Part shown: piece by piece, positions 15,895 to 41,980 of the stretch
How positions within the stretch are numbered: the first letter of the stretch is position 1
Layout: each line of letters begins with the position of its first letter
Assembly (NCBI GenBank): GCA_963798845.1
Contig: CAWCUS010000002.1
Coordinates: 10,073-74,072, forward strand
DNA length: 64,000 bases
Source of the DNA: an uncultured Gemmatimonadales bacterium
Lineage (GTDB): Bacteria; Gemmatimonadota; Gemmatimonadetes; Longimicrobiales; RSA9
Direction: 5' to 3'
Made by a program: the position numbers and the translations under genes
Notes under the pieces: generated by a model
What the model was told of the DNA's origin: nothing
Database searches by the model: none
The model's input: the letters and a program-made list of their open reading frames with translations, nothing else

Positions 15895-16079
15895 GCTCCT
15901 CCCCCGGTCGCGTCTCTGTGGCGCCTCGAACCAGTCGAGACGGTGCCATTATCGTGCCAGCTCGCACAAGCCCGCGCACGTGCGGAGGCGAGATCGGCGG
16001 TCAGCAGCTTTCGGCACTCCGGCGCCTGAGCCTACGTTGGGCCGGAGCGCTTTGTGCATCAAGTCCACTCGGAGAATCC

Positions 16080-16682: not shown

Positions 16683-18139
16683 TGTCGGACGACAGAGCGG
16701 CGACGGCAGCGGAGCGGCAGGCCGGCGGCGAGGCCGGCGGAGATGCCAGTGGCAAGGCCGGCGGGGGCGGCACGGGGTTCGGGACGGGTGACGCCGCGAG
16801 TGCCGGGAACGGCGCCGGTGTGCACGCGCACCGGGGCGCGGAGCGGAAGACGCTGCGCACCGCGGAGCTTCCGGCGGGTGCGGAGGCGCAGCCGCCGGCC
16901 GACGAGATGACGCCGTTCGACGCGGTCAACTATCAGTTCGACTGCGCGGCGAGGCGGCTGGGACTGTCGGAGCACCTCCAGGTGGCGCTGAAGACGCCGT
17001 ACCGTGAAGTGATGGTGGAGATCCCGCTGATCGGCGACGATGGCGACATCCGCACGTTCCACGGCTACCGCGTCCAGCACAACAACGCCCGGGGCCCCAT
17101 GAAGGGCGGGCTGCGCTACCACCCGGACGTCGACCTCGACGAGGCGAGGGCGCTCGCATCGCTCATGACGTGGAAGACGGCGGTGGCGAACATCCCGTTC
17201 GGCGGGGCGAAGGGGGGCGTCGACATCGACCCCGCCCGATTCTCGCGCGCGGAAGTCGAGCGGATCACGCGCACGTTCATCGGCCGCATCCACCAGTTCA
17301 TCGGTCCCAACGAGGACGTGCCAGCGCCGGACGTGAACACGAACCCGCAGGTCATGGCGTGGATCGTGGACGAGTACTCGAAGTTCCGCGGCTTCACCCC
17401 TGCCGTCGTGACGGGAAAGCCGCTGGAGGTGGGCGGCTCACCCGGCCGGATTTCCGCCACCGGCCGAGGCGTTGCCATCATCGCAGCGAGGGCGGCAGCG
17501 GACGAACGCCTGGCACTCGACGGCGCCCGCGTTGCCGTACAGGGGTTCGGCAATGTGGGCAGCTGGAGCGCGCACTTCCTCTCGGAGCTCGGCGCTCGGG
17601 TGGTGGCCGTGAGCGACGTCGACGGCGGCGTGTACCGCGAGGACGGGCTGGACGTGGCGCGGCTGCGGGAGATGACGGCCGCGGGCGAGAGCGTGGCCGC
17701 CTGCGGAGACGGGGCCGAGCCGATCACCAACGCCGAGCTCCTGGAGCTGGACGTGGACGTGCTCGTCCCCGCCGCGCTGGGTGGTGTGATCACGCGCTGG
17801 AACGCCCGCAACGTCCGGGCGAAGCTGGTGGTGGAGGGGGCGAACGCGCCCACCACGCCCGCCGGCGACGCCATCCTCGAGGAGCGCGGCGTGAAGGTCG
17901 TTCCCGACATCCTCGCCAACGCCGGCGGCGTGACGGCATCATACTTCGAATGGGTGCAGAACCTCCAGCAGTTCCGCTGGTCCGAGGAGCAGGTGGACCG
18001 GGAGCTGAAATCCGTGATGGAGCGCGCATGGGCCGAGGTGCGCGATGCCGCCCGAGAGCAGGAGACGTCGCTGCGGACCGCCGCGTTCATGGTGGCGATC
18101 CGCAGAGTGGCGCGGGCTGTTCAGGTGCGGGGGGGGTAG
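16682..18139 (+). CDS. gdhA: Glu/Leu/Phe/Val-family glutamate dehydrogenase with a ~75-aa Gly/Ala-rich N-terminal extension
   Basis: The ATG at 16682 overlaps the pncA stop (TGATG). HNNARGPMKGGLRYHP, MTWKTAVANIPFGGAKGG (catalytic Lys) and VAVQGFGNVGSW (Rossmann). An alternative start is Met 16907. Confidence 0.9.
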   Translation: MSDDRAATAAERQAGGEAGGDASGKAGGGGTGFGTGDAASAGNGAGVHAHRGAERKTLRTAELPAGAEAQPPADEMTPFDAVNYQFDCAARRLGLSEHLQVALKTPYREVMVEIPLIGDDGDIRTFHGYRVQHNNARGPMKGGLRYHPDVDLDEARALASLMTWKTAVANIPFGGAKGGVDIDPARFSRAEVERITRTFIGRIHQFIGPNEDVPAPDVNTNPQVMAWIVDEYSKFRGFTPAVVTGKPLEVGGSPGRISATGRGVAIIAARAAADERLALDGARVAVQGFGNVGSWSAHFLSELGARVVAVSDVDGGVYREDGLDVARLREMTAAGESVAACGDGAEPITNAELLELDVDVLVPAALGGVITRWNARNVRAKLVVEGANAPTTPAGDAILEERGVKVVPDILANAGGVTASYFEWVQNLQQFRWSEEQVDRELKSVMERAWAEVRDAAREQETSLRTAAFMVAIRRVARAVQVRGG

Positions 18140-18145
18140 CGGGGG

Positions 18146-18412
18146 GAGGGGCTCGGCCTGACGGCCTCGCAGAGGGGCTCGGCCTGACGGCCTCGCAGAG
18201 GGGCTCGGCCATTCGGCCTCGCAGAGGGGCTCGGCCTGCGGCCTCGCAGAGGGGCTCGGCCATTCGGCCTCGCAGAGGGGCTCGGCCTGCGGCCTCGCAG
18301 AGGGGCTCGGCCTGCGGCCTCGCAGAGGGGCTCGGCCTGCGGCCTCGCAGAGGGGCTCGGCCTGCGGCCTCGCAGAGGGGCTCGGCCTGCGGCCTCGCAG
18401 AGGGGCTCGCTG
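18146..18412. repeat. Tandem array A: ~10.5 head-to-tail copies of a 25/26-bp unit GAGGGGCTCGGCC[TGC|TGAC|ATTC]GGCCTCGCA
   Basis: Unit starts read directly at 18146, 18172, 18198, 18224, 18249, 18275, 18300, 18325, 18350, 18375 and 18400 (partial). No spacers between units. Confidence 0.9.
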
Positions 18413-18471
18413 ACGCTCGCTCCGCGGCGGCTGTCGCCGCCGGGGTGAGTGGACCCGATCTGACCGCGGGC

Positions 18472-18684
18472 GAGCCCCTCTGCGCGCCTCCGGCGCGCCC
18501 CTCTGCGAACGAAGTGAGCCCCTCTGCGCGCCTCCGGCGCGCCCCTCTGCGAACGAAGTGAGCCCCTCTGCGCGCCTCCGGCGCGCCCCTCTGCGAACGA
18601 AGTGAGCCCCTCTGCGCGCCTCCGGCGCGCCCCTCTGCGAACGAAGTGAGCCCCTCTGCGCGCCTCCGGCGCGCCCCTCTGCGA
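18472..18684. repeat. Tandem array B: ~4.8 copies of a 44-bp unit GAGCCCCTCTGCG-CGCCTCCGGC-GCGCCCCTCTGCG-AACGAAGT, whose core is inverted relative to array A
   Basis: Unit starts at 18472, 18516, 18560, 18604 and 18648. Each unit holds two copies of CCCCTCTGCG (the reverse complement of CGCAGAGGGG in array A) and a GCGCGCC-tcc-GGCGCGC hairpin. Confidence 0.9.
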
Positions 18685-18788
18685 GGGCGGAGCCCGAGCC
18701 CCCCGCGGTGTACCACTTGGCCGGTGACCTCCACGCCGGTAGTGTTGGCGAGACCGGAGCGGGACGGAAACGGCCGCATGGGAGCAGC

Positions 18789-20000
18789 GTGATCGAGCGA
18801 CGGCAGACGGTGACGGTGGACGTGGGCGGAGTGAAGGTGGGGTCGGCCCACCCGATCGTCGTACAGTCCATGACGAACACGGACACGGCCAATGCGGCCG
18901 GCACGGCGGAGCAGGTGGCGCACCTGCGTGGTGCGGGCAGCGAGCTGGTGCGTGTCACGGTGAACAACGACGACGCGGCGAAGGCGGTGCCGGAGATCGT
19001 CGCGCGGCTGGCGGACGTGGGGCTGGACGTGCCGATCGTGGGGGACTTCCACTACAACGGGCACCAGTTGCTGGCGAAGCACCCTGATGCGGCGGCGGCG
19101 CTGGCGAAGTACCGGATCAACCCGGGCAATGTGGGAGCCAGGCGCCGGGACGAGAACTTCCAGACCATCGTGCGGATCGCGATGGAGCGGGGGAAGCCGG
19201 TCCGGATCGGCGTGAACTGGGGGTCGCTCGACCAGCACCTCCTGACGGAGATGATGGACGCCAACGCGCTCAGCTCGACGCCACTGGACGCGCGGGCCGT
19301 GATGATCGAGGCGATGATCGAGAGCGCGCTGCGCTCGGCCTCGCTGGCGGAGGAAACGGGACTGGGCCACGACCGGATCGTGCTGAGCGCGAAGGTGAGT
19401 GGTGTGCAGGACCTGGTGGAGGTTTACCGGAAGCTCGCGGCGCGCTGCGACTACCCGCTCCACCTCGGGCTCACCGAGGCCGGGATGGGGACGAAGGGGG
19501 TGGTCGCCACCACCGCCGGCCTCAGCATCCTCCTCCAGGACGGGATTGGCGACACGATCCGCGTTTCGCTCACGCCGCGGCCGGGCGGCGACCGGGCCGA
19601 GGAGGTGCGGGTGGCGCAGCAGGTCCTCCAGTCGATGGGGATCCGGAGCTTCACTCCGCAAGTGACCTCGTGCCCCGGCTGCGGGCGCACCACGAGCACG
19701 TACTTCCAGCGGATGGCGGAGGAGATCCAGGCGTACACTCGCGACCGCATGCCCGATTGGCGGGTGCGCTACCCCGGGGTGGAAGAGCTCCGGCTGGCGG
19801 TGATGGGGTGCGTGGTAAACGGCCCGGGCGAGTCGAAGCACGCGCATATCGGGATCAGCCTGCCGGGCACGTTCGAGGAACCGAAGGCGCCCGTGTACGT
19901 GGACGGAGAGCTGCTCACCACCCTGAAGGGGGAGGGCCTGGTCGAGGAGTTCAAGGGGATCCTGGACCGCTACGTGGCAGACCGTTTCGCGCCGCGCTGA
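18789..20000 (+). CDS. ispG: 4-hydroxy-3-methylbut-2-en-1-yl diphosphate synthase (flavodoxin), IspG/GcpE
   Basis: [18 protein letters not shown] and GCVVNGPGE are Fe-S ligand blocks. Start uncertain: GTG 18789 with GGGAG upstream was chosen. The track ORF opens at GTG 18708, at the edge of the repeat block. Confidence 0.9.
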
Positions 20001-37212: not shown

Positions 37213-39095
37213 GTGAATCGGCAACGCTGACGGAATACGACCGCTACCTTTTCAACGAGGGGAGCCATCAGGCCGTGTACGAGCGCCTCGGTGCGCACCC
37301 GGAGGCGGACGGGACGCGCTTCGCGGTCTGGGCCCCATCGGCGGAGGCGGTGAGCGTCATCGGGGACTTCAACGACTGGGACAAGACCGCGACGCCGCTG
37401 GAGCCTCAGGGCTCGTCCGGGATCTGGACCGGGCGGGTGCCCGGCGTGGAACGGGGTGCGATCTACAAGTATCACATCCGCTCGCGCCGTGCCGGGTACC
37501 GCGTGGACAAGGCGGACCCGGTAGGGTTCCACCAGGAAACGCCACCGAAGACGGGGTCGGTGGTGTGGGATCTGGCTTACGATTGGGGAGACGAGGAATG
37601 GCTGGCGGGGCGCGGCGAGCGGAACCGCCTGGACTCGCCGATCTCGATCTACGAAGTGCACCTGGGATCGTGGATGCGGCCGCCGGACCGGGAGTTCAAC
37701 ACGTACCGGGAGATGGCGCCTCGCCTGGCGGAGTACGTGCGCGACGCCGGCTTCACGCACGTGGAGCTGCTCCCGATCATGGAGCACCCGTTCTACGGGT
37801 CGTGGGGGTACCAGACCACCGGGTACTTCGCGCCAACGAGCCGCTACGGCACGCCGCAGGACTTCATGTACCTGGTGGACCACCTGCACCAGGCGGGGAT
37901 CGGCGTGATCCTGGACTGGGTCCCCAGCCACTTCCCGAACGACGAGCACGGGCTGGCCTACTTCGACGGCACGCACCTCTTCGAGCACTCCGACCCCCGG
38001 AAGGGGTACCACCCCGACTGGAAGTCCGGGATCTTCAATTACGGCCGGAACGAAGTGCGCAGCTTCCTGATCAGCAGCGCCATGTTCTGGCTCGACCGAT
38101 ACCACGTGGATGGGCTGCGTGTGGACGCGGTCGCCTCCATGCTCTACCTCGACTACTCGAGGCAGGAAGGGGAGTGGATCCCCAACCAGCACGGAGGGCG
38201 TGAGAACCTGGAAGCGATCTCCTTCCTGCGACAGCTGAACAGGGCGGTGTACGAGCGCTTTCCGGACGTACAGACGTTCGCGGAGGAGTCCACCGCATGG
38301 CCGATGGTGTCGCGCCCGCCGGAGATCGGCGGGCTCGGCTTCGGGCTGAAGTGGGACATGGGGTGGATGCACGACACGCTCGAGTACATGGCCCGCGACC
38401 CGGTCCACCGCGTGCACCACCACGACGAGATCACGTTCCGGGCCGTGTACATGTTCACGGAGAACTACACCCTGCCGCTGTCACACGACGAAGTGGTCTA
38501 CGGGAAAGGGTCGCTGATCGGCAAGATGCCCGGCGACGCCTGGCAAAAGCGGGCCAACCTGCGAACGCTCCTGGCGTACATGTACGGCCAACCGGGCAAG
38601 AAGCTGCTGTTCATGGGGGGCGAGTTCGGCCAGTGGGGGGAATGGGCGCACGAGCACGAACTGGAATGGGGGCTGCTCGAGCAGCCGGAGCACCGGGGTC
38701 TGCTCAAGCTCACCTCCGCCCTCAACACCCTGTACCGCGAGCGACCGGAGCTGTACGAGAAGGATACCGTGCCGGAAGGGTACGAATGGGTGATCGGCGA
38801 CGACCGCGCCAACAGCGTCCTCGCCTTCCTCCGGCGCGGCCACGACCGGGGCAGCGCCGTGCTCTGCGTATACAACTTCACCCCCGTCCCCCGCGACGAA
38901 TACCGCGTCGGCGTCCCGTTCGCGGGGACGTGGGACGTGCTGCTGGACTCCGACGCCGAGCAGTTCGGCGGGAGCGGGTACGCCGCATCGCAGGAAACGG
39001 TGGAGACCGACGAAGAGCCGGCGCACGGGCGGGAGCAGTCGCTCTCGCTGGTGCTGCCGCCGCTGGCAGCGGTGTTCCTGGCGCCGCGGCGGTAG
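37209..39095 (+). CDS. glgB: 1,4-alpha-glucan branching enzyme GlgB
   Basis: 628 aa. The ATG overlaps the malQ stop (ATGA). [31 protein letters not shown] and [10 protein letters not shown]. Confidence 0.9.
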
Positions 39096-39198
39096 GCGCC
39101 GGGCCACGCCGCTTCGAATCCGGCTCCGCCGGGCGGCGCCGGGACGCGCCGCTTCGAATCCGGCTCCGCCGGGCGGCGCGGGACGCGCCGCTTCGAAA
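39095..39198. repeat. Tandem repeat, ~2.6 copies of a 40-bp GC-rich hairpin-forming unit, starting at the glgB stop codon
   Basis: Units at 39095, 39135 and 39175 (partial): GGCGCCGGG(CCA|ACG)CGCCGCTTCGAATCCGGCTCCGCCGGGC. Each contains a CCGGC-tcc-GCCGG hairpin and outer GCGCCGC/GCGGCGC arms. Confidence 0.8.
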
Positions 39199-41879: not shown

Positions 41880-41980
41880 GGGCCGCGCTCACCGTTTGGC
41901 TCTCGCGAGGCCCCGCGCGCCCCCTGGCCGCCCAGGGCCCCCCGGGCCCCCGGGCCCCCCGACGCCCCCTGGGCCTCCGC

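What the first reader, a model, noticed from the sequence alone, without database searches (positions are those of the whole stretch)
18146..18684. gdh-ispG spacer is built from two opposed tandem arrays with matched copy number of one 10-mer core
Seen directly: the 650-bp spacer is almost entirely repeat.
- Array A (18146-18412) has ~10.5 contiguous copies of a 25/26-bp unit GAGGGGCTCGGCC[TGC|TGAC|ATTC]GGCCTCGCA.
- A ~60-bp unique centre follows, containing the hairpin CGGCGGC-tgtc-GCCGCCG (~18425-18442).
- Array B (18472-18684) has ~4.8 copies of a 44-bp unit GAGCCCCTCTGCG-CGCCTCCGGC-GCGCCCCTCTGCG-AACGAAGT.
- CGCAGAGGGG occurs 10 times in A. Its exact reverse complement CCCCTCTGCG occurs 10 times in B, twice per unit.
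- So the arms are inverted, with equal core counts but different unit lengths (25 nt versus alternating 23/21-nt core spacing).
- Each B unit also carries its own GCGCGCC-tcc-GGCGCGC hairpin.

Inference: if transcribed with gdh, the arms could zip into a ladder of about ten short helices separated by bulges. Alternatively the DNA presents 10+10 convergently oriented binding sites. It is not CRISPR (no spacers, no cas genes). It is not a simple REP element, and I cannot assign it to a named repeat class.
Basis: partly seen in the sequence, partly recalled or inferred. Interest (0 to 1): 0.68.

Follow-up and report, generated by a model that had tools for sequence, protein, structure and literature searches.

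The report
Repeat-armed giant hairpin before ispG
Between two housekeeping genes of a soil Gemmatimonadota bacterium lie two young tandem-repeat arrays that mirror each other and can zip into a roughly 570-base hairpin; relatives carry differently sequenced versions of the same design at the same spot, so it looks like a fast-evolving local structure rather than a known repeat family.

Summary
Array A is 18146-18412 (25/26-bp unit, 10.4 copies). Array B is 18472-18684 (44-bp unit, 4.8 copies, 100% identical). CGCAGAGGGG occurs 10 times in A and its reverse complement 10 times in B, and nowhere else in the 64 kb. The spacer is predicted to fold into 10 helices of 12-14 bp plus a closing helix (z about -10).

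It is not CRISPR, not a dispersed REP/BIME/REPIN family as far as the data reach, and not a plasmid or phage element. No mobile-element, cas or par gene lies in the window.

The closest relative (IspG 89% identical, same gene order) has a 172-bp spacer without arrays. That spacer does keep the right-hand flank, to which the A unit is 88% complementary. I therefore read the arrays as grown in place from an older hairpin by replication slippage.

Three other lineages carry unrelated repeats in the same layout (array, unique centre, reverse-complement array) directly upstream of ispG. In one of them, copy numbers differ between samples and the two arms vary independently.

Best reading: a locally generated pair of minisatellites with complementary arms. 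It may act as a transcript-end barrier or insulator between gdh and ispG. No function has been shown.

The parts
16757..18139 (+). gdh (Glu/Leu/Phe/Val dehydrogenase family). The start is approximate. The stop is TAG at 18137-18139, 7 nt before array A.
   Evidence: Pfam ELFV_dehydrog_N and ELFV_dehydrog. tblastn of the L001 Gdh covers 16796-18127 at 86% identity.
18101..18114 (+). Core-like 14-mer CGCAGAGTGGCGCG inside the last gdh codons. It matches the B-strand core variant CGCAGAGGGGCGCG at 13 of 14 positions and includes an AGA codon where the relatives read differently.
   Evidence: Pattern search allowing 2 mismatches. Comparison with the gdh ends of relatives. Possible seed of the core, or a spill-over from it; not resolved.
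18139..18156 (.). Left closing arm GCGGGGGGAGGGGCTCGG, which overlaps the first A unit. In the fold, GGGGCTCGG pairs with CCGAGCCCC at 18694-18702.
   Evidence: MFE structures. Inverted repeats I1-I11.
18146..18412 (.). Array A: 10 full units of 25/26 nt plus a truncated eleventh. Each unit is the core CGCAGAGGGGCTCG plus a GGCC-N3/4-GGCC mini-hairpin. The loop variants run TGAC,TGAC | ATTC,TGC | ATTC,TGC | TGC,TGC | TGC,TGC, which is partly a two-unit (51-nt) higher order.
   Evidence: TRF score 478. Units listed. All variation between units lies in the 3-4-nt loop.
18413..18471 (.). Unique centre, with the hairpin CGGCGGC-tgtc-GCCGCCG at 18425-18442.
   Evidence: Sequence. Fold of the centre -35.2 kcal/mol. 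No similarity to the centres of the sister elements.
18472..18684 (.). Array B: 4.8 identical units of 44 nt. Each unit has two reverse-complement cores (GAGCCCCTCTGCG and GCGCCCCTCTGCG), a GCGCGCC-tcc-GGCGCGC hairpin between them, and an AACGAAGT linker.
   Evidence: TRF 100% matches, score 426. Units listed.
18685..18705 (.). Right closing arm AGGGCGGAGCCCGAGCCCCCCGC. Together with the last B core (18669-18702) it is 88% complementary to a whole A unit plus core. The homologous sequence is present in the array-free relative L001.
   Evidence: Inverted repeats I1-I6. Local alignment to the L001 spacer, score 47.
18706..18788 (+). Unique, conserved ispG-proximal flank (GGTGTACCAC..CACGCCGGTAGTGTTGG). 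I presume it holds the ispG promoter and leader.
   Evidence: Aligns with L001 9904-10000 and partly with L142. No sigma-70 consensus match, so the promoter assignment is inference.
18789..20000 (+). ispG (GcpE), GTG start, 403 aa.
   Evidence: Pfam GcpE, E = 2e-115. 100% identical over its full length to P0001.

Best explanation
The spacer holds a young pair of minisatellites that grew in place and whose units carry reverse-complementary cores. I call it a 'repeat-armed quasi-palindrome'.

**Origin (inferred).**
1. A hairpin of about 33 bp already stood between the gdh stop codon and the ispG promoter region.
2. Its left arm was bracketed by the short direct repeat GAGGGGCTCG, and its right arm by GCCCC motifs.
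3. Replication slippage then amplified each arm separately. The left arm grew as 25/26-nt units, at least once two units at a time. The right arm grew as a 44-nt unit carrying two cores.
4. Because both arrays descend from the two strands of one stem, and are too young to have diverged, every core in A still pairs with a core in B.

**Behaviour (predicted fold; consequence inferred).**
- Any single strand of the region, whether the gdh read-through transcript or DNA unwound at a replication fork, is predicted to fold into a rod of about 570 nt with ten 12-14-bp helices and a closing helix.
- Array A starts 7 nt after the gdh stop, and no other terminator-like signal precedes ispG.
- The most likely consequence is therefore a structural 3'-end barrier and partial terminator. 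It would protect the gdh message and shield the ispG promoter from read-through, as REP/BIME hairpins do in enterobacteria.
- Copy number would drift by slippage.

This locus is one instance of a clade-wide tendency. The DNA directly upstream of ispG in Longimicrobiales-like genomes repeatedly acquires such opposed arrays.
For: **Anatomy and folding.**
-.
- RNA MFE is -476.7 kcal/mol against -394.7 +/- 8.4 for shuffles.
- A alone gives -144.5, the centre -35.2, B alone -104.9, and the whole -439.3 kcal/mol.
- 139 of the 220 predicted base pairs are between A and B.

**Local growth.**
- The closest relative, L001, has IspG 89% identical and the same order ahpC, isochorismatase, gdh, ispG. Its spacer is 172 bp with no array.
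- Window 18672-18724 aligns to that spacer.
- A whole A unit plus core is 88% complementary to 18669-18702.

**Youth.** B is 100% identical and A 96%.

**Slippage behaviour in a sister locus.** Six contigs encoding the identical IspG differ in the copy numbers of both arrays.

**Not a dispersed or mobile family, as far as tested.**
- The core is absent from the other 63 kb of the window and from about 84 kb of relatives.
- No such array turned up in viral or metagenome contigs, plasmids or phages.
- The window contains only housekeeping genes.

**Non-coding.** Periods of 25/26 and 44 are not multiples of three, and ORFs crossing the arrays have no Pfam domain.
Against: - No expression data exist, so the terminator or barrier role is inference.
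- There is no U-tract after the structure, so it is not a canonical intrinsic terminator.
- In two sister lineages (L145, L158) the equivalent element lies between divergent genes. It cannot be a terminator there, so a shared function would have to act on DNA or on the ispG promoter.
- The ancestral-hairpin step rests on one relative and on short, GC-rich alignments. The L001 spacer itself does not fold significantly better than shuffles (z = -1.4).
- Independent slippage does not explain the exact 10:10 match, nor the perfect 34-nt arms in L158. Chance (roughly 1 in 10) or some coupling must be invoked.
- Only 64 kb of the source genome could be searched.
Confidence: 0.55

Rival explanations
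1. It is a selected structural module. A long hairpin- or cruciform-forming element directly upstream of the ispG core promoter is maintained by selection in this clade. The architecture (array, centre, complementary array) is what matters, so the sequence is free to turn over. The arms co-evolve to stay complementary. Copy number tunes insulation, termination or the supercoiling response of ispG and its neighbour.
For: - Four of ten sampled lineages carry opposed complementary repeats at this one position, with unrelated units. These are the window (25/44 nt), L145 (6 nt), L158 (7 nt, perfect 34-nt arms, 4:4) and L148 (about 41 nt, nested).
- Across 148 kb, clusters of at least 7 inverted 13-mer pairs occur at those four sites and at only one other place. 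A Fisher test against my rough estimate of about 120 other spacers gives about 2e-5.
- All variation among the A units falls in the 3-4-nt hairpin loop, and none in stems or cores.
- The arms are exactly matched in the window and in L158.
Against: - Six lineages lack the element, including the closest relative.
- In the L145 group the arms are very unequal and vary independently between samples.
- The centres share no similarity.
- The arrays are so young that their complementarity needs no selection.
- Loci were sampled around ispG, so the other spacers are a smaller and uneven control.
- A MITE-like inverted repeat at another spacer (L158 4234-4545) shows that the clade makes such structures elsewhere too.
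Confidence: 0.2
2. It is a small non-autonomous mobile element (MITE, REPIN or PATE-like, with hairpin ends). It inserted at a preferred site upstream of ispG, and its arms later expanded internally.
For: - L140 looks like an 'empty site'. It has 18 nt between the two conserved boxes, whereas L145 and L158 carry unrelated inserts of about 200-270 bp at that same point.
- A 312-bp element bounded by 35-nt arms that are 97% complementary lies between convergent genes in L158.
- REP and REPIN elements are known to form ordered tandem clusters of up to 12 copies (PMC3116915).
- GTAG, the tag of one REP superfamily (PMC3733652), sits at the left edge, at 18136-18139.
Against: - No second copy of any of these elements was found. 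I checked the window, the relatives, viral and metagenome contigs, plasmids and phages.
- No target-site duplication is visible.
- The window encodes no transposase or RAYT.
- The right end of the window's structure is present in the array-free relative, which argues against a clean insertion.
- The GTAG is simply the gdh stop codon, and no CTAC matches it at the other end.
Confidence: 0.12
3. The arrays are binding sites. Ten plus ten convergently oriented sites for a DNA-binding protein would form a nucleoprotein complex, as iterons, partition sites or fork traps do.
For: - The 10-14-nt core is invariant in 20 copies.
- B cores recur every 21/23 bp, about two helical turns.
- From memory, the layout recalls parC of plasmid R1 (two sets of five iterons) and sopC of F (12 x 43 bp, each with an inverted repeat).
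Against: - A cores recur every 25/26 bp (about 2.4 turns), so the two arrays are not in the same phase.
- The core occurs nowhere else in 64 kb.
- No par, rep or regulator gene is adjacent.
- Cumulative GC skew rises steadily through the window, so this is neither an origin nor a terminus.
- Sister loci use entirely different 6- and 7-nt units, which no single protein would read.
Confidence: 0.05
4. It is an assembly artefact. The arrays, or their copy numbers, were created or distorted by the assembler.
For: - Only one assembly of this locus is available.
- B is suspiciously perfect.
- Two short-read contigs of a sister locus break inside their array (L155, L157), so such repeats do trouble assemblers.
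Against: - The A array has an ordered pattern of three loop variants, not a uniform stutter.
- The two arrays have different units, which inverted-duplication chimeras do not produce.
- The flanking genes are intact and in frame.
- The source contig is 898 kb.
- Sister elements were assembled independently from eight and from two samples.
Confidence: 0.05

Closest known systems
REP / BIME clusters and REPINs (enterobacteria, Pseudomonas)
   Same: - Extragenic, GC-rich and hairpin-forming.
- Often lie just after a stop codon between co-directional genes.
- Can form ordered tandem clusters of up to about 12 copies.
- A REPIN is two inverted REPs around a short spacer that fold into one hairpin (PMC3116915, PMC3337134).
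- Proposed roles are transcript-end protection, termination and supercoiling (PMC3733652), which is the role I propose here.
   Different: - REP families are dispersed in tens to hundreds of copies and are tied to a RAYT transposase. This core occurs at one locus only in all the DNA I could search, and no RAYT is in the window.
- As I recall, BIMEs alternate orientation unit by unit. Here all left units point one way and all right units the other.
- The two arms have different unit lengths and share only a 12-14-nt core.
Intergenic minisatellites / VNTRs (for example mycobacterial MIRUs, MLVA loci)
   Same: - Head-to-tail units of 10-100 bp in intergenic DNA.
- Very high identity between copies.
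- Lineage-specific presence.
- Copy-number differences between close strains, shown here for the sister locus.
- Slippage as the generating mechanism.
   Different: Ordinary VNTRs are single arrays. This one is a pair whose units are reverse-complementary and bracket a unique centre, so the whole locus is one giant quasi-palindrome.
Quasi-palindromes and template-switch mutagenesis
   Same: - Imperfect inverted repeats that form hairpins during replication.
- Their arms are made more alike by strand switching (PMC7202029, PMC5941160).
- This could explain the perfect 34-nt arms in L158 and the fully paired arms here.
   Different: - Described cases are single short arms, not arrays.
- Copying one arm from the other would make B the exact complement of A, which it is not.
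MITEs such as Neisseria Correia elements or ERIC
   Same: - Elements of 100-300 bp with inverted ends that fold as hairpins in transcripts.
- Present or absent at the same intergenic site in related genomes.
- Can alter expression of neighbouring genes (from memory).
   Different: - MITEs have many near-identical copies and target-site duplications. Neither was found here.
- MITE ends are not tandem arrays.
Iteron and partition-site arrays (R1 parC, F sopC)
   Same: Clustered short repeats in two blocks, or 43/44-bp units each holding a small inverted repeat (from memory).
   Different: - Those sit on plasmids next to par or rep genes, and their repeats are direct.
- This one is chromosomal, sits between gdh and ispG, has convergent blocks, and has no such genes nearby.
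CRISPR arrays
   Same: Regularly spaced short repeats.
   Different: - The intervals between repeats are identical, not unique spacers.
- There are no cas genes.
- No Rfam match.

Membership tests
REP / BIME / REPIN | Many dispersed copies per genome | tested here: not met
   The core and both units occur only at 18146-18684 in the 64-kb window. None was seen in about 84 kb of relatives. The rest of the source genome could not be searched.
REP / BIME / REPIN | The unit is itself a 20-40-bp imperfect palindrome | tested here: inconclusive
   The shared core is not palindromic. The A unit holds only a 4-bp GGCC stem, and the B unit a 7-bp stem.
REP / BIME / REPIN | Two inverted copies fold into one hairpin (REPIN) | tested here: met
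   The innermost cores, 18396-18410 and 18470-18484, are 15 nt, 100% complementary and 59 nt apart (I21). The whole locus folds as one hairpin.
REP / BIME / REPIN | Associated RAYT (Y1) transposase in the genome | not testable with these tools
   None is encoded among the 41 larger open reading frames of the window that I scanned with Pfam. The rest of the genome is not available.
CRISPR | Direct repeats separated by unique spacers of similar length | tested here: not met
   The intervals between cores are identical or nearly so within each array.
CRISPR | cas genes nearby | tested here: not met
   Pfam scans of the ORFs across the 64 kb found only housekeeping families.
Intergenic VNTR / minisatellite | Head-to-tail copies of a 10-100-bp unit in non-coding DNA | tested here: met
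   TRF scores 478 and 426. The arrays lie between the gdh stop and the ispG start. Their periods are not multiples of three.
Intergenic VNTR / minisatellite | Copy number differs between closely related strains | tested here: inconclusive
   Only one assembly exists for the window's own arrays, so they cannot be tested. The sister locus meets the criterion: counts of hexamer-pattern matches (left, right) are (5,18), (5,19), (7,18), (7,19), (5,21) and (5,19) on contigs with identical IspG. Those are short-read assemblies, so some noise is possible.
MITE | Terminal inverted repeats plus target-site duplication | tested here: not met
   The outer arms pair over 9 bp plus a few further pairs. No duplication is visible at the edges. 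The right edge is present in the array-free relative.
MITE | Multiple near-identical copies | tested here: not met
   Searches found none. The source genome beyond the window was not searched.
Intrinsic (Rho-independent) terminator | GC-rich stem-loop followed by a U-tract | tested here: not met
   No terminator-like site lies in 17800-19000. The structure is followed by GGTGTACCAC, not by a T-run. It may still act as a barrier without being a member of this class.
Iteron / partition-site array | Adjacent replication or partition genes, with repeats in a common helical phase | tested here: not met
   No par or rep gene is in the window. Spacings of 25/26 bp and 21/23 bp are out of phase with each other.

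The most novel reading that the evidence does not exclude
Longimicrobiales-like bacteria keep, directly upstream of the ispG core promoter, a structural module with conserved architecture and free sequence. It consists of two tandem arrays of mutually complementary units around a unique centre. Its arms co-evolve, and are even replaced wholesale by new repeat families. Its copy number tunes a hairpin or cruciform that insulates or regulates ispG and its neighbour. If so, this would be a regulatory element defined by repeat geometry rather than by sequence, and it would be invisible to homology searches.
Probability: 0.15. Interest if true: 0.75.

Novelty: new variant of a known kind. Interest (0 to 1): 0.5.

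Why it matters
**What it is.** On its own the locus is a curiosity: an intergenic minisatellite pair that happens to be self-complementary.

**What makes it worth a second look.**
- The same design recurs upstream of one essential gene, ispG of the MEP isoprenoid pathway.
- It is built from unrelated 6-, 7-, about 41- and 25/44-nt units in four lineages.

**Two possible explanations, both testable.**
- Replication and repair in these GC-rich genomes may readily turn a hairpin into a growing, two-armed repeat structure. That would be a mutational process not described for bacteria, as far as I could find.
- Alternatively, a long hairpin at that position may be useful and be kept by selection while its sequence turns over.

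**Practical consequences.**
- Such arrays break short-read assemblies (L155 and L157 end inside one).
- They mislead gene callers. The ahpC product was called at 258-264 aa instead of 156 aa because the call ran across the arrays.
- They offer highly variable strain markers for an uncultured soil group.

Tried and rejected
**Searches that led nowhere.**
- The genome-collection scan with CGCAGAGGGG-N8-20-CGCAGAGGGG was too permissive. 
- The stricter two-core pattern found nothing in viral contigs.
- In metagenome contigs it gave 25 hits. Most are an unrelated low-GC repeat, apparently cyanobacterial. A few are other GC-rich short tandem repeats. None resembles arrays A or B.
- Looking up the window's own IspG to reach more of the source contig failed, because that protein is not on record.
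- Rfam gave no family hit, only a sub-threshold chance match to a plant microRNA family, MIR2907.
- No tRNA gene is in the window, so it is not a tRNA-linked integration site.
- No sigma-70 promoter or intrinsic-terminator consensus lies in the spacer.
- Plasmid and phage BLAST gave no match.
- Literature searches for opposed or inverted tandem arrays in bacteria, and for repeats in Longimicrobium or Gemmatimonadota, found nothing pertinent.

**Ideas considered and dropped.**
- A coding repeat. The periods are not multiples of three, and ORFs across the arrays have no Pfam domain.
- An origin or terminus of replication. The GC skew is monotonic across the window.
- A shared TTCGAATCC motif, seen in L148 and in the window's 39095-39197 array, as a sign of a clade-wide dispersed family. 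There are only three to four occurrences in all.
- Homology between the centres of the four elements. There is none above shuffled controls.
- Nested self-insertion of a hairpin element as the source of matched arms. It predicts equal divergence in both arms, but A has three unit variants and B has none.
- B copied from A by template switching. B is not the complement of the A unit outside the core.
Full report
**1.

Tandem Repeats Finder reports two arrays that stand far above everything else in the window:
- 18146-18409: period 25, 10.4 copies, 96% matches, score 478.
- 18472-18684: period 44, 4.8 copies, 100% matches, score 426.

Reading out the units gives ten A units of 26 or 25 nt, GAGGGGCTCGGCC-[TGAC|ATTC|TGC]-GGCCTCGCA, plus a truncated eleventh. 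It gives four full copies plus a 37-nt partial copy of the 44-nt B unit, GAGCCCCTCTGCGCGCCTCCGGCGCGCCCCTCTGCGAACGAAGT.

CGCAGAGGGG occurs ten times, all in A. CCCCTCTGCG occurs ten times, all in B, at alternating 23- and 21-nt steps. Neither occurs elsewhere in the 64 kb. Shuffled controls expect essentially none of this.

The centre hairpin (18425-18442) and the hairpin inside each B unit are also present.

The flanking genes are a Glu/Leu/Phe/Val-type dehydrogenase that ends at 18139, and ispG, which starts with GTG at 18789. The spacer is therefore 649 bp. The arrays fill 477 bp of it, and the last 104 bp are unique.

**2. Predicted structure.**

As RNA, 18130-18790 folds to -476.7 kcal/mol, against -394.7 +/- 8.4 for dinucleotide shuffles (z = -9.8). 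The opposite strand and single-stranded DNA behave the same way (z = -13.0 and -11.4).

Parsing the structure shows:
- ten A-B helices of 12-14 bp;
- a closing helix, GGGGCTCGG (18148-18156) with CCGAGCCCC (18694-18702);
- 139 of the 220 base pairs running between the arrays.

A alone gives -144.5, the centre -35.2, B alone -104.9, and the whole -439.3 kcal/mol.

Two A units (51 nt) face one B unit (44 nt). The little GGCC and GCGCC hairpins sit at the junctions.

The order of A-unit loop variants is TGAC,TGAC | ATTC,TGC | ATTC,TGC | TGC,TGC | TGC,TGC. This shows at least one two-unit duplication. All variation between A units is confined to the 3-4-nt loop.

**3. Context.**

The organism is a 70%-GC member of the Gemmatimonadota. 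Its IspG homologues are named Longimicrobiales, Longimicrobia or Gemmatimonadota by their sources.

Pfam scans of the larger open reading frames across the window find only housekeeping functions. They include:
- histidine kinases, ahpC and an isochorismatase;
- gdh and ispG;
- GlgE-pathway glycogen genes, peptidases and 2-oxoacid:ferredoxin oxidoreductases.

There is no transposase, RAYT, cas, reverse transcriptase or partition gene. There is no tRNA gene. GC skew rises monotonically, so this is neither an origin nor a terminus. Rfam, a sigma-70 promoter scan and an intrinsic-terminator scan are all negative. ORFs running through the arrays have no Pfam domain, and the repeat periods are not multiples of three.

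**4. Is it a dispersed family?**

- Within the window the core is confined to this locus.
- A two-core pattern found nothing in viral contigs.
- In metagenome contigs it gave 25 hits. Most are an unrelated low-GC, apparently cyanobacterial, repeat. A few are other GC-rich short tandem repeats.
- Plasmids and phages gave no match.
- The window's own IspG could not be looked up to reach more of the source contig.

Dispersal is therefore excluded only for the DNA I could see.

**5. The closest relative lacks the arrays.**

L001 (IspG 89% identical) has the same gene order: ahpC, isochorismatase, gdh, ispG. Its gdh-ispG spacer is 172 bp with no tandem repeat.

Window 18672-18724, which is the last B core plus the right flank, aligns to that spacer:
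- window: CGCCCCTCTGCGAGGGCGGAGCCCGAGC..GCGGTGTACCAC
- L001: CGCCCGTGTGGGGGCGGAGCCCGGGC..GCGGTGTATCAC

A complete A unit plus core is 88% complementary to exactly this stretch, 18669-18702 (I1-I6).

So the right arm is old, and the A unit is its complement. I infer that a hairpin of about 33 bp stood there before the arrays. Its left arm was bracketed by GAGGGGCTCG on both sides, an ideal substrate for slippage.

The perfect identity of B and the near-identity of A say that the expansions are recent. That also explains why all cores still pair, without invoking selection.

This reconstruction rests on one relative and on short GC-rich alignments. The L001 spacer does not fold significantly better than chance (z = -1.4).

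A core-like 14-mer (13 of 14 positions) inside the last gdh codons, at 18101-18114, may be related to the origin of the core. I could not resolve this.

**6. The same design recurs upstream of ispG in other lineages, with unrelated sequence.**

This was not part of the finding and is the most interesting result.

- **L145-L147 and L150-L156 (IspG 88% identical).** The ahpC-ispG spacer holds (GCGTTC)n, a centre of about 115 nt, then (AACGCG/AACGCC)n. GCGTTC is the reverse complement of GAACGC. The fold has z = -6.3.
- **L158 and L159 (87% identical).** The same site holds a perfect 34-nt inverted repeat made of heptamers, GGAAGGATGAAGGATGAAGGATGAAGGATGAAGG ... CCTTCATCC..TTCC. The arms are 4:4, the centre is 130 nt, and z = -6.2.
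- **L148.** Three direct copies of a GGGATTCG-containing unit of about 41 nt face two inverted copies (z = -2.7).

The flanks of the L145 and L158 elements are homologous to each other and to L140. L140 looks like an empty site, with only 18 nt between the two conserved boxes. The inserts themselves and their centres are unrelated.

I scanned 148 kb of clade DNA for exact inverted 13-mers within 700 bp. Clusters of at least seven pairs occur at these four ispG-upstream sites (81, 64, 30 and 7 pairs). The only other such cluster is a 312-bp element bounded by 35-nt arms between convergent genes in L158. Four of ten ispG-upstream spacers against none of my rough estimate of about 120 other spacers gives a Fisher p of about 2e-5. 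That test did not count the L158 element as a hit among the other spacers, and counting it would weaken the p-value somewhat. The loci were also sampled around ispG, so the control set is uneven.

The region is also a recurrent deletion junction:
- some relatives have cydAB between gdh and ispG (L139, L142, L143);
- one has lost gdh (L148);
- others have lost gdh and the isochorismatase gene (L140, L145, L158).

The arrays are seen only in lineages without cydAB.

**7. Copy-number behaviour.**

Six contigs from different samples encode the identical IspG of the L145 group. Their counts of hexamer-pattern matches (left, right) are (5,18), (5,19), (7,18), (7,19), (5,21) and (5,19). Both arms change, they change independently, and they are far from matched. 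Two further contigs end inside the right array.

These are short-read assemblies, so some noise is possible. However, the differences are whole units within a patterned array.

Together with the 4:4 arms in L158, this shows that matching is not a general property of such elements. The 10:10 match in the window may be chance, roughly one in ten for arrays of this size. It may also reflect a coupling that I cannot demonstrate.

**8. What it is and how it most likely works.**

- **Shown:** two arrays with complementary cores, unique to this lineage, non-coding, lying between gdh and the conserved ispG-proximal flank.
- **Predicted from folding energies:** the arrays zip into one long ladder.
- **Inferred:** growth in place from an older hairpin by slippage, and continuing copy-number drift.
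- **Inferred function:** array A starts 7 nt after the gdh stop, and nothing else resembling a terminator precedes ispG. Transcription leaving gdh must therefore enter the arrays, and the rod that forms should block 3'-to-5' exonucleases and impede read-through. This is the way REP/BIME hairpins are thought to act (PMC3733652, PMC3116915).

Against a general terminator role:
- there is no U-tract;
- in L145 and L158 the element lies between divergent genes.

If the four elements share a function, it must act on DNA or on the ispG promoter. If they do not, they are by-products of a hairpin-prone, deletion-prone junction. I put about 0.55 on the locally grown, slippage-driven quasi-palindrome reading, with the barrier role as its likely but unproven effect. 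I put about 0.2 on a selected structural module, and the rest on mobile-element, binding-site and artefact readings.

**9. Comparison with known kinds.**

- It works most like a REP/BIME or REPIN hairpin. It fails the family's defining tests wherever I could apply them: it sits at a single locus, its core is not palindromic, and no RAYT is in view.
- It meets the structural definition of an intergenic minisatellite. By analogy with the sister locus, it probably behaves as a VNTR.
- Its two-armed complementary layout is not a feature of described VNTRs, MIRUs, BIMEs, MITEs, iteron arrays or CRISPRs.
- My literature searches found no description of such opposed arrays in bacteria.

I therefore rate it a new variant of a known kind, of moderate interest. 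Most of that interest lies in the recurrence at ispG.

Noticed in passing
L145 2692-2957; also L146, L147, L150-L156: The ahpC-ispG spacer of a relative holds (GCGTTC)n and, about 115 nt further on, (AACGCG/AACGCC)n. These are reverse-complementary arrays with unequal copy numbers. Both numbers differ between samples whose IspG is identical.
   Followed up: yes
L158 2286-2484 (identical in L159): A perfect 34-nt inverted repeat built of four heptamers (GGATGAA / TTCATCC) brackets a 130-nt centre. It sits at the same site as the L145 element but is unrelated in sequence. L140 looks like the empty site.
   Followed up: yes
L148 2673-2898: The isochorismatase-ispG spacer has three direct copies of a GGGATTCG-containing unit facing two inverted copies (nested inverted repeats). 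The fold has z = -2.7.
   Followed up: partly
window 15944-15959 (minus strand); also L001 7702-7717, L140 3942-3957, L145 2688-2703, L148 1953-1968, L158 2266-2281: A sigma-54-type -24/-12 element (TGGCAC-N5-TGGCA and variants) lies about 50-60 nt upstream of ahpC in all six lineages. It is the only strict match in the 64-kb window. In L145 and L158 the repeat element begins immediately beside it.
   Followed up: partly
L142 1425-3792, L143 1554-3888, L139 1314-3792, compared with window 18140-18788: Cytochrome bd oxidase genes cydAB lie on the opposite strand upstream of ispG, and between gdh and ispG in L142 and L143. They are absent from the window and from L001. Other relatives have also lost gdh, or gdh and the isochorismatase gene. 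The DNA upstream of ispG is thus a recurrent deletion junction.
   Followed up: partly
L143 1421-1545 and L144 111-235: Directly after the gdh stop codon a relative carries (GAGCTCC/GAACTCC)x10 followed by CGCCCAA-type repeats. This is a different tandem array at the position where the window has array A. The two samples differ by one substitution.
   Followed up: no
window 39095-39197: A second intergenic tandem repeat (40-bp unit, 2.6 copies, 95% matches) starts at the stop codon of a glycogen-branching-type gene and precedes a GH57/DUF3536 gene. It shares only a TTCGAATCC motif with the L148 spacer.
   Followed up: partly
window 41906-41979: A C-rich microsatellite (GGCCCCC-type, period 8-9 or 27) lies just after the stop of the GH57/DUF3536 gene, in the short gap before what appears to be a convergent gene on the other strand.
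   Followed up: no
window 18101-18114: The last gdh codons contain CGCAGAGTGGCGCG, a 13-of-14 match to the array core, including an AGA codon where relatives read GGG CGC. The repeat core may have been seeded from here, or may have overwritten this stretch.
   Followed up: partly
L158 4234-4545: A 312-bp element bounded by 35-nt arms that are 97% complementary sits between two convergent genes. Each arm begins with TCTAGA. On the DUF3667 side the TCTAGA overlaps that gene's stop codon. It looks like a miniature inverted-repeat element.
   Followed up: partly
L145 4857-5031: A 62-bp unit repeated 2.9 times (79% matches) lies in the spacer after the small gene downstream of ispG.
   Followed up: no
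L145-L147, L150-L154, L156 (the gene called upstream of ispG): Automatic gene calls extend ahpC to 258-264 residues, against 156 in other lineages, because the open frame runs through the repeat arrays. In L152 a 71-aa gene is called inside the spacer that holds the arrays. Both are annotation artefacts caused by the repeats.
   Followed up: partly
L139, L140, L143, L148, L149 just before the ispG ATG; window 18740-18788: A conserved TTAGATT box lies a few nucleotides upstream of the ispG ATG in several relatives, which may indicate a -10-like element and a very short leader. The window and L001 lack it at that position and start ispG with GTG. A TAGTGT/TAGCTT motif lies 40-50 nt upstream instead.
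   Followed up: no
L114-L138 (for example L115 3096-3130) and the Coleofasciculus loci among L002-L113: An unrelated low-GC element, apparently cyanobacterial, turned up repeatedly in both collection scans. It is a T-run followed by CGCAGAGGGGCGCAGAGG..GCGCAGAGGGGCGCAGAGG. It shares the 10-mer by chance.
   Followed up: no
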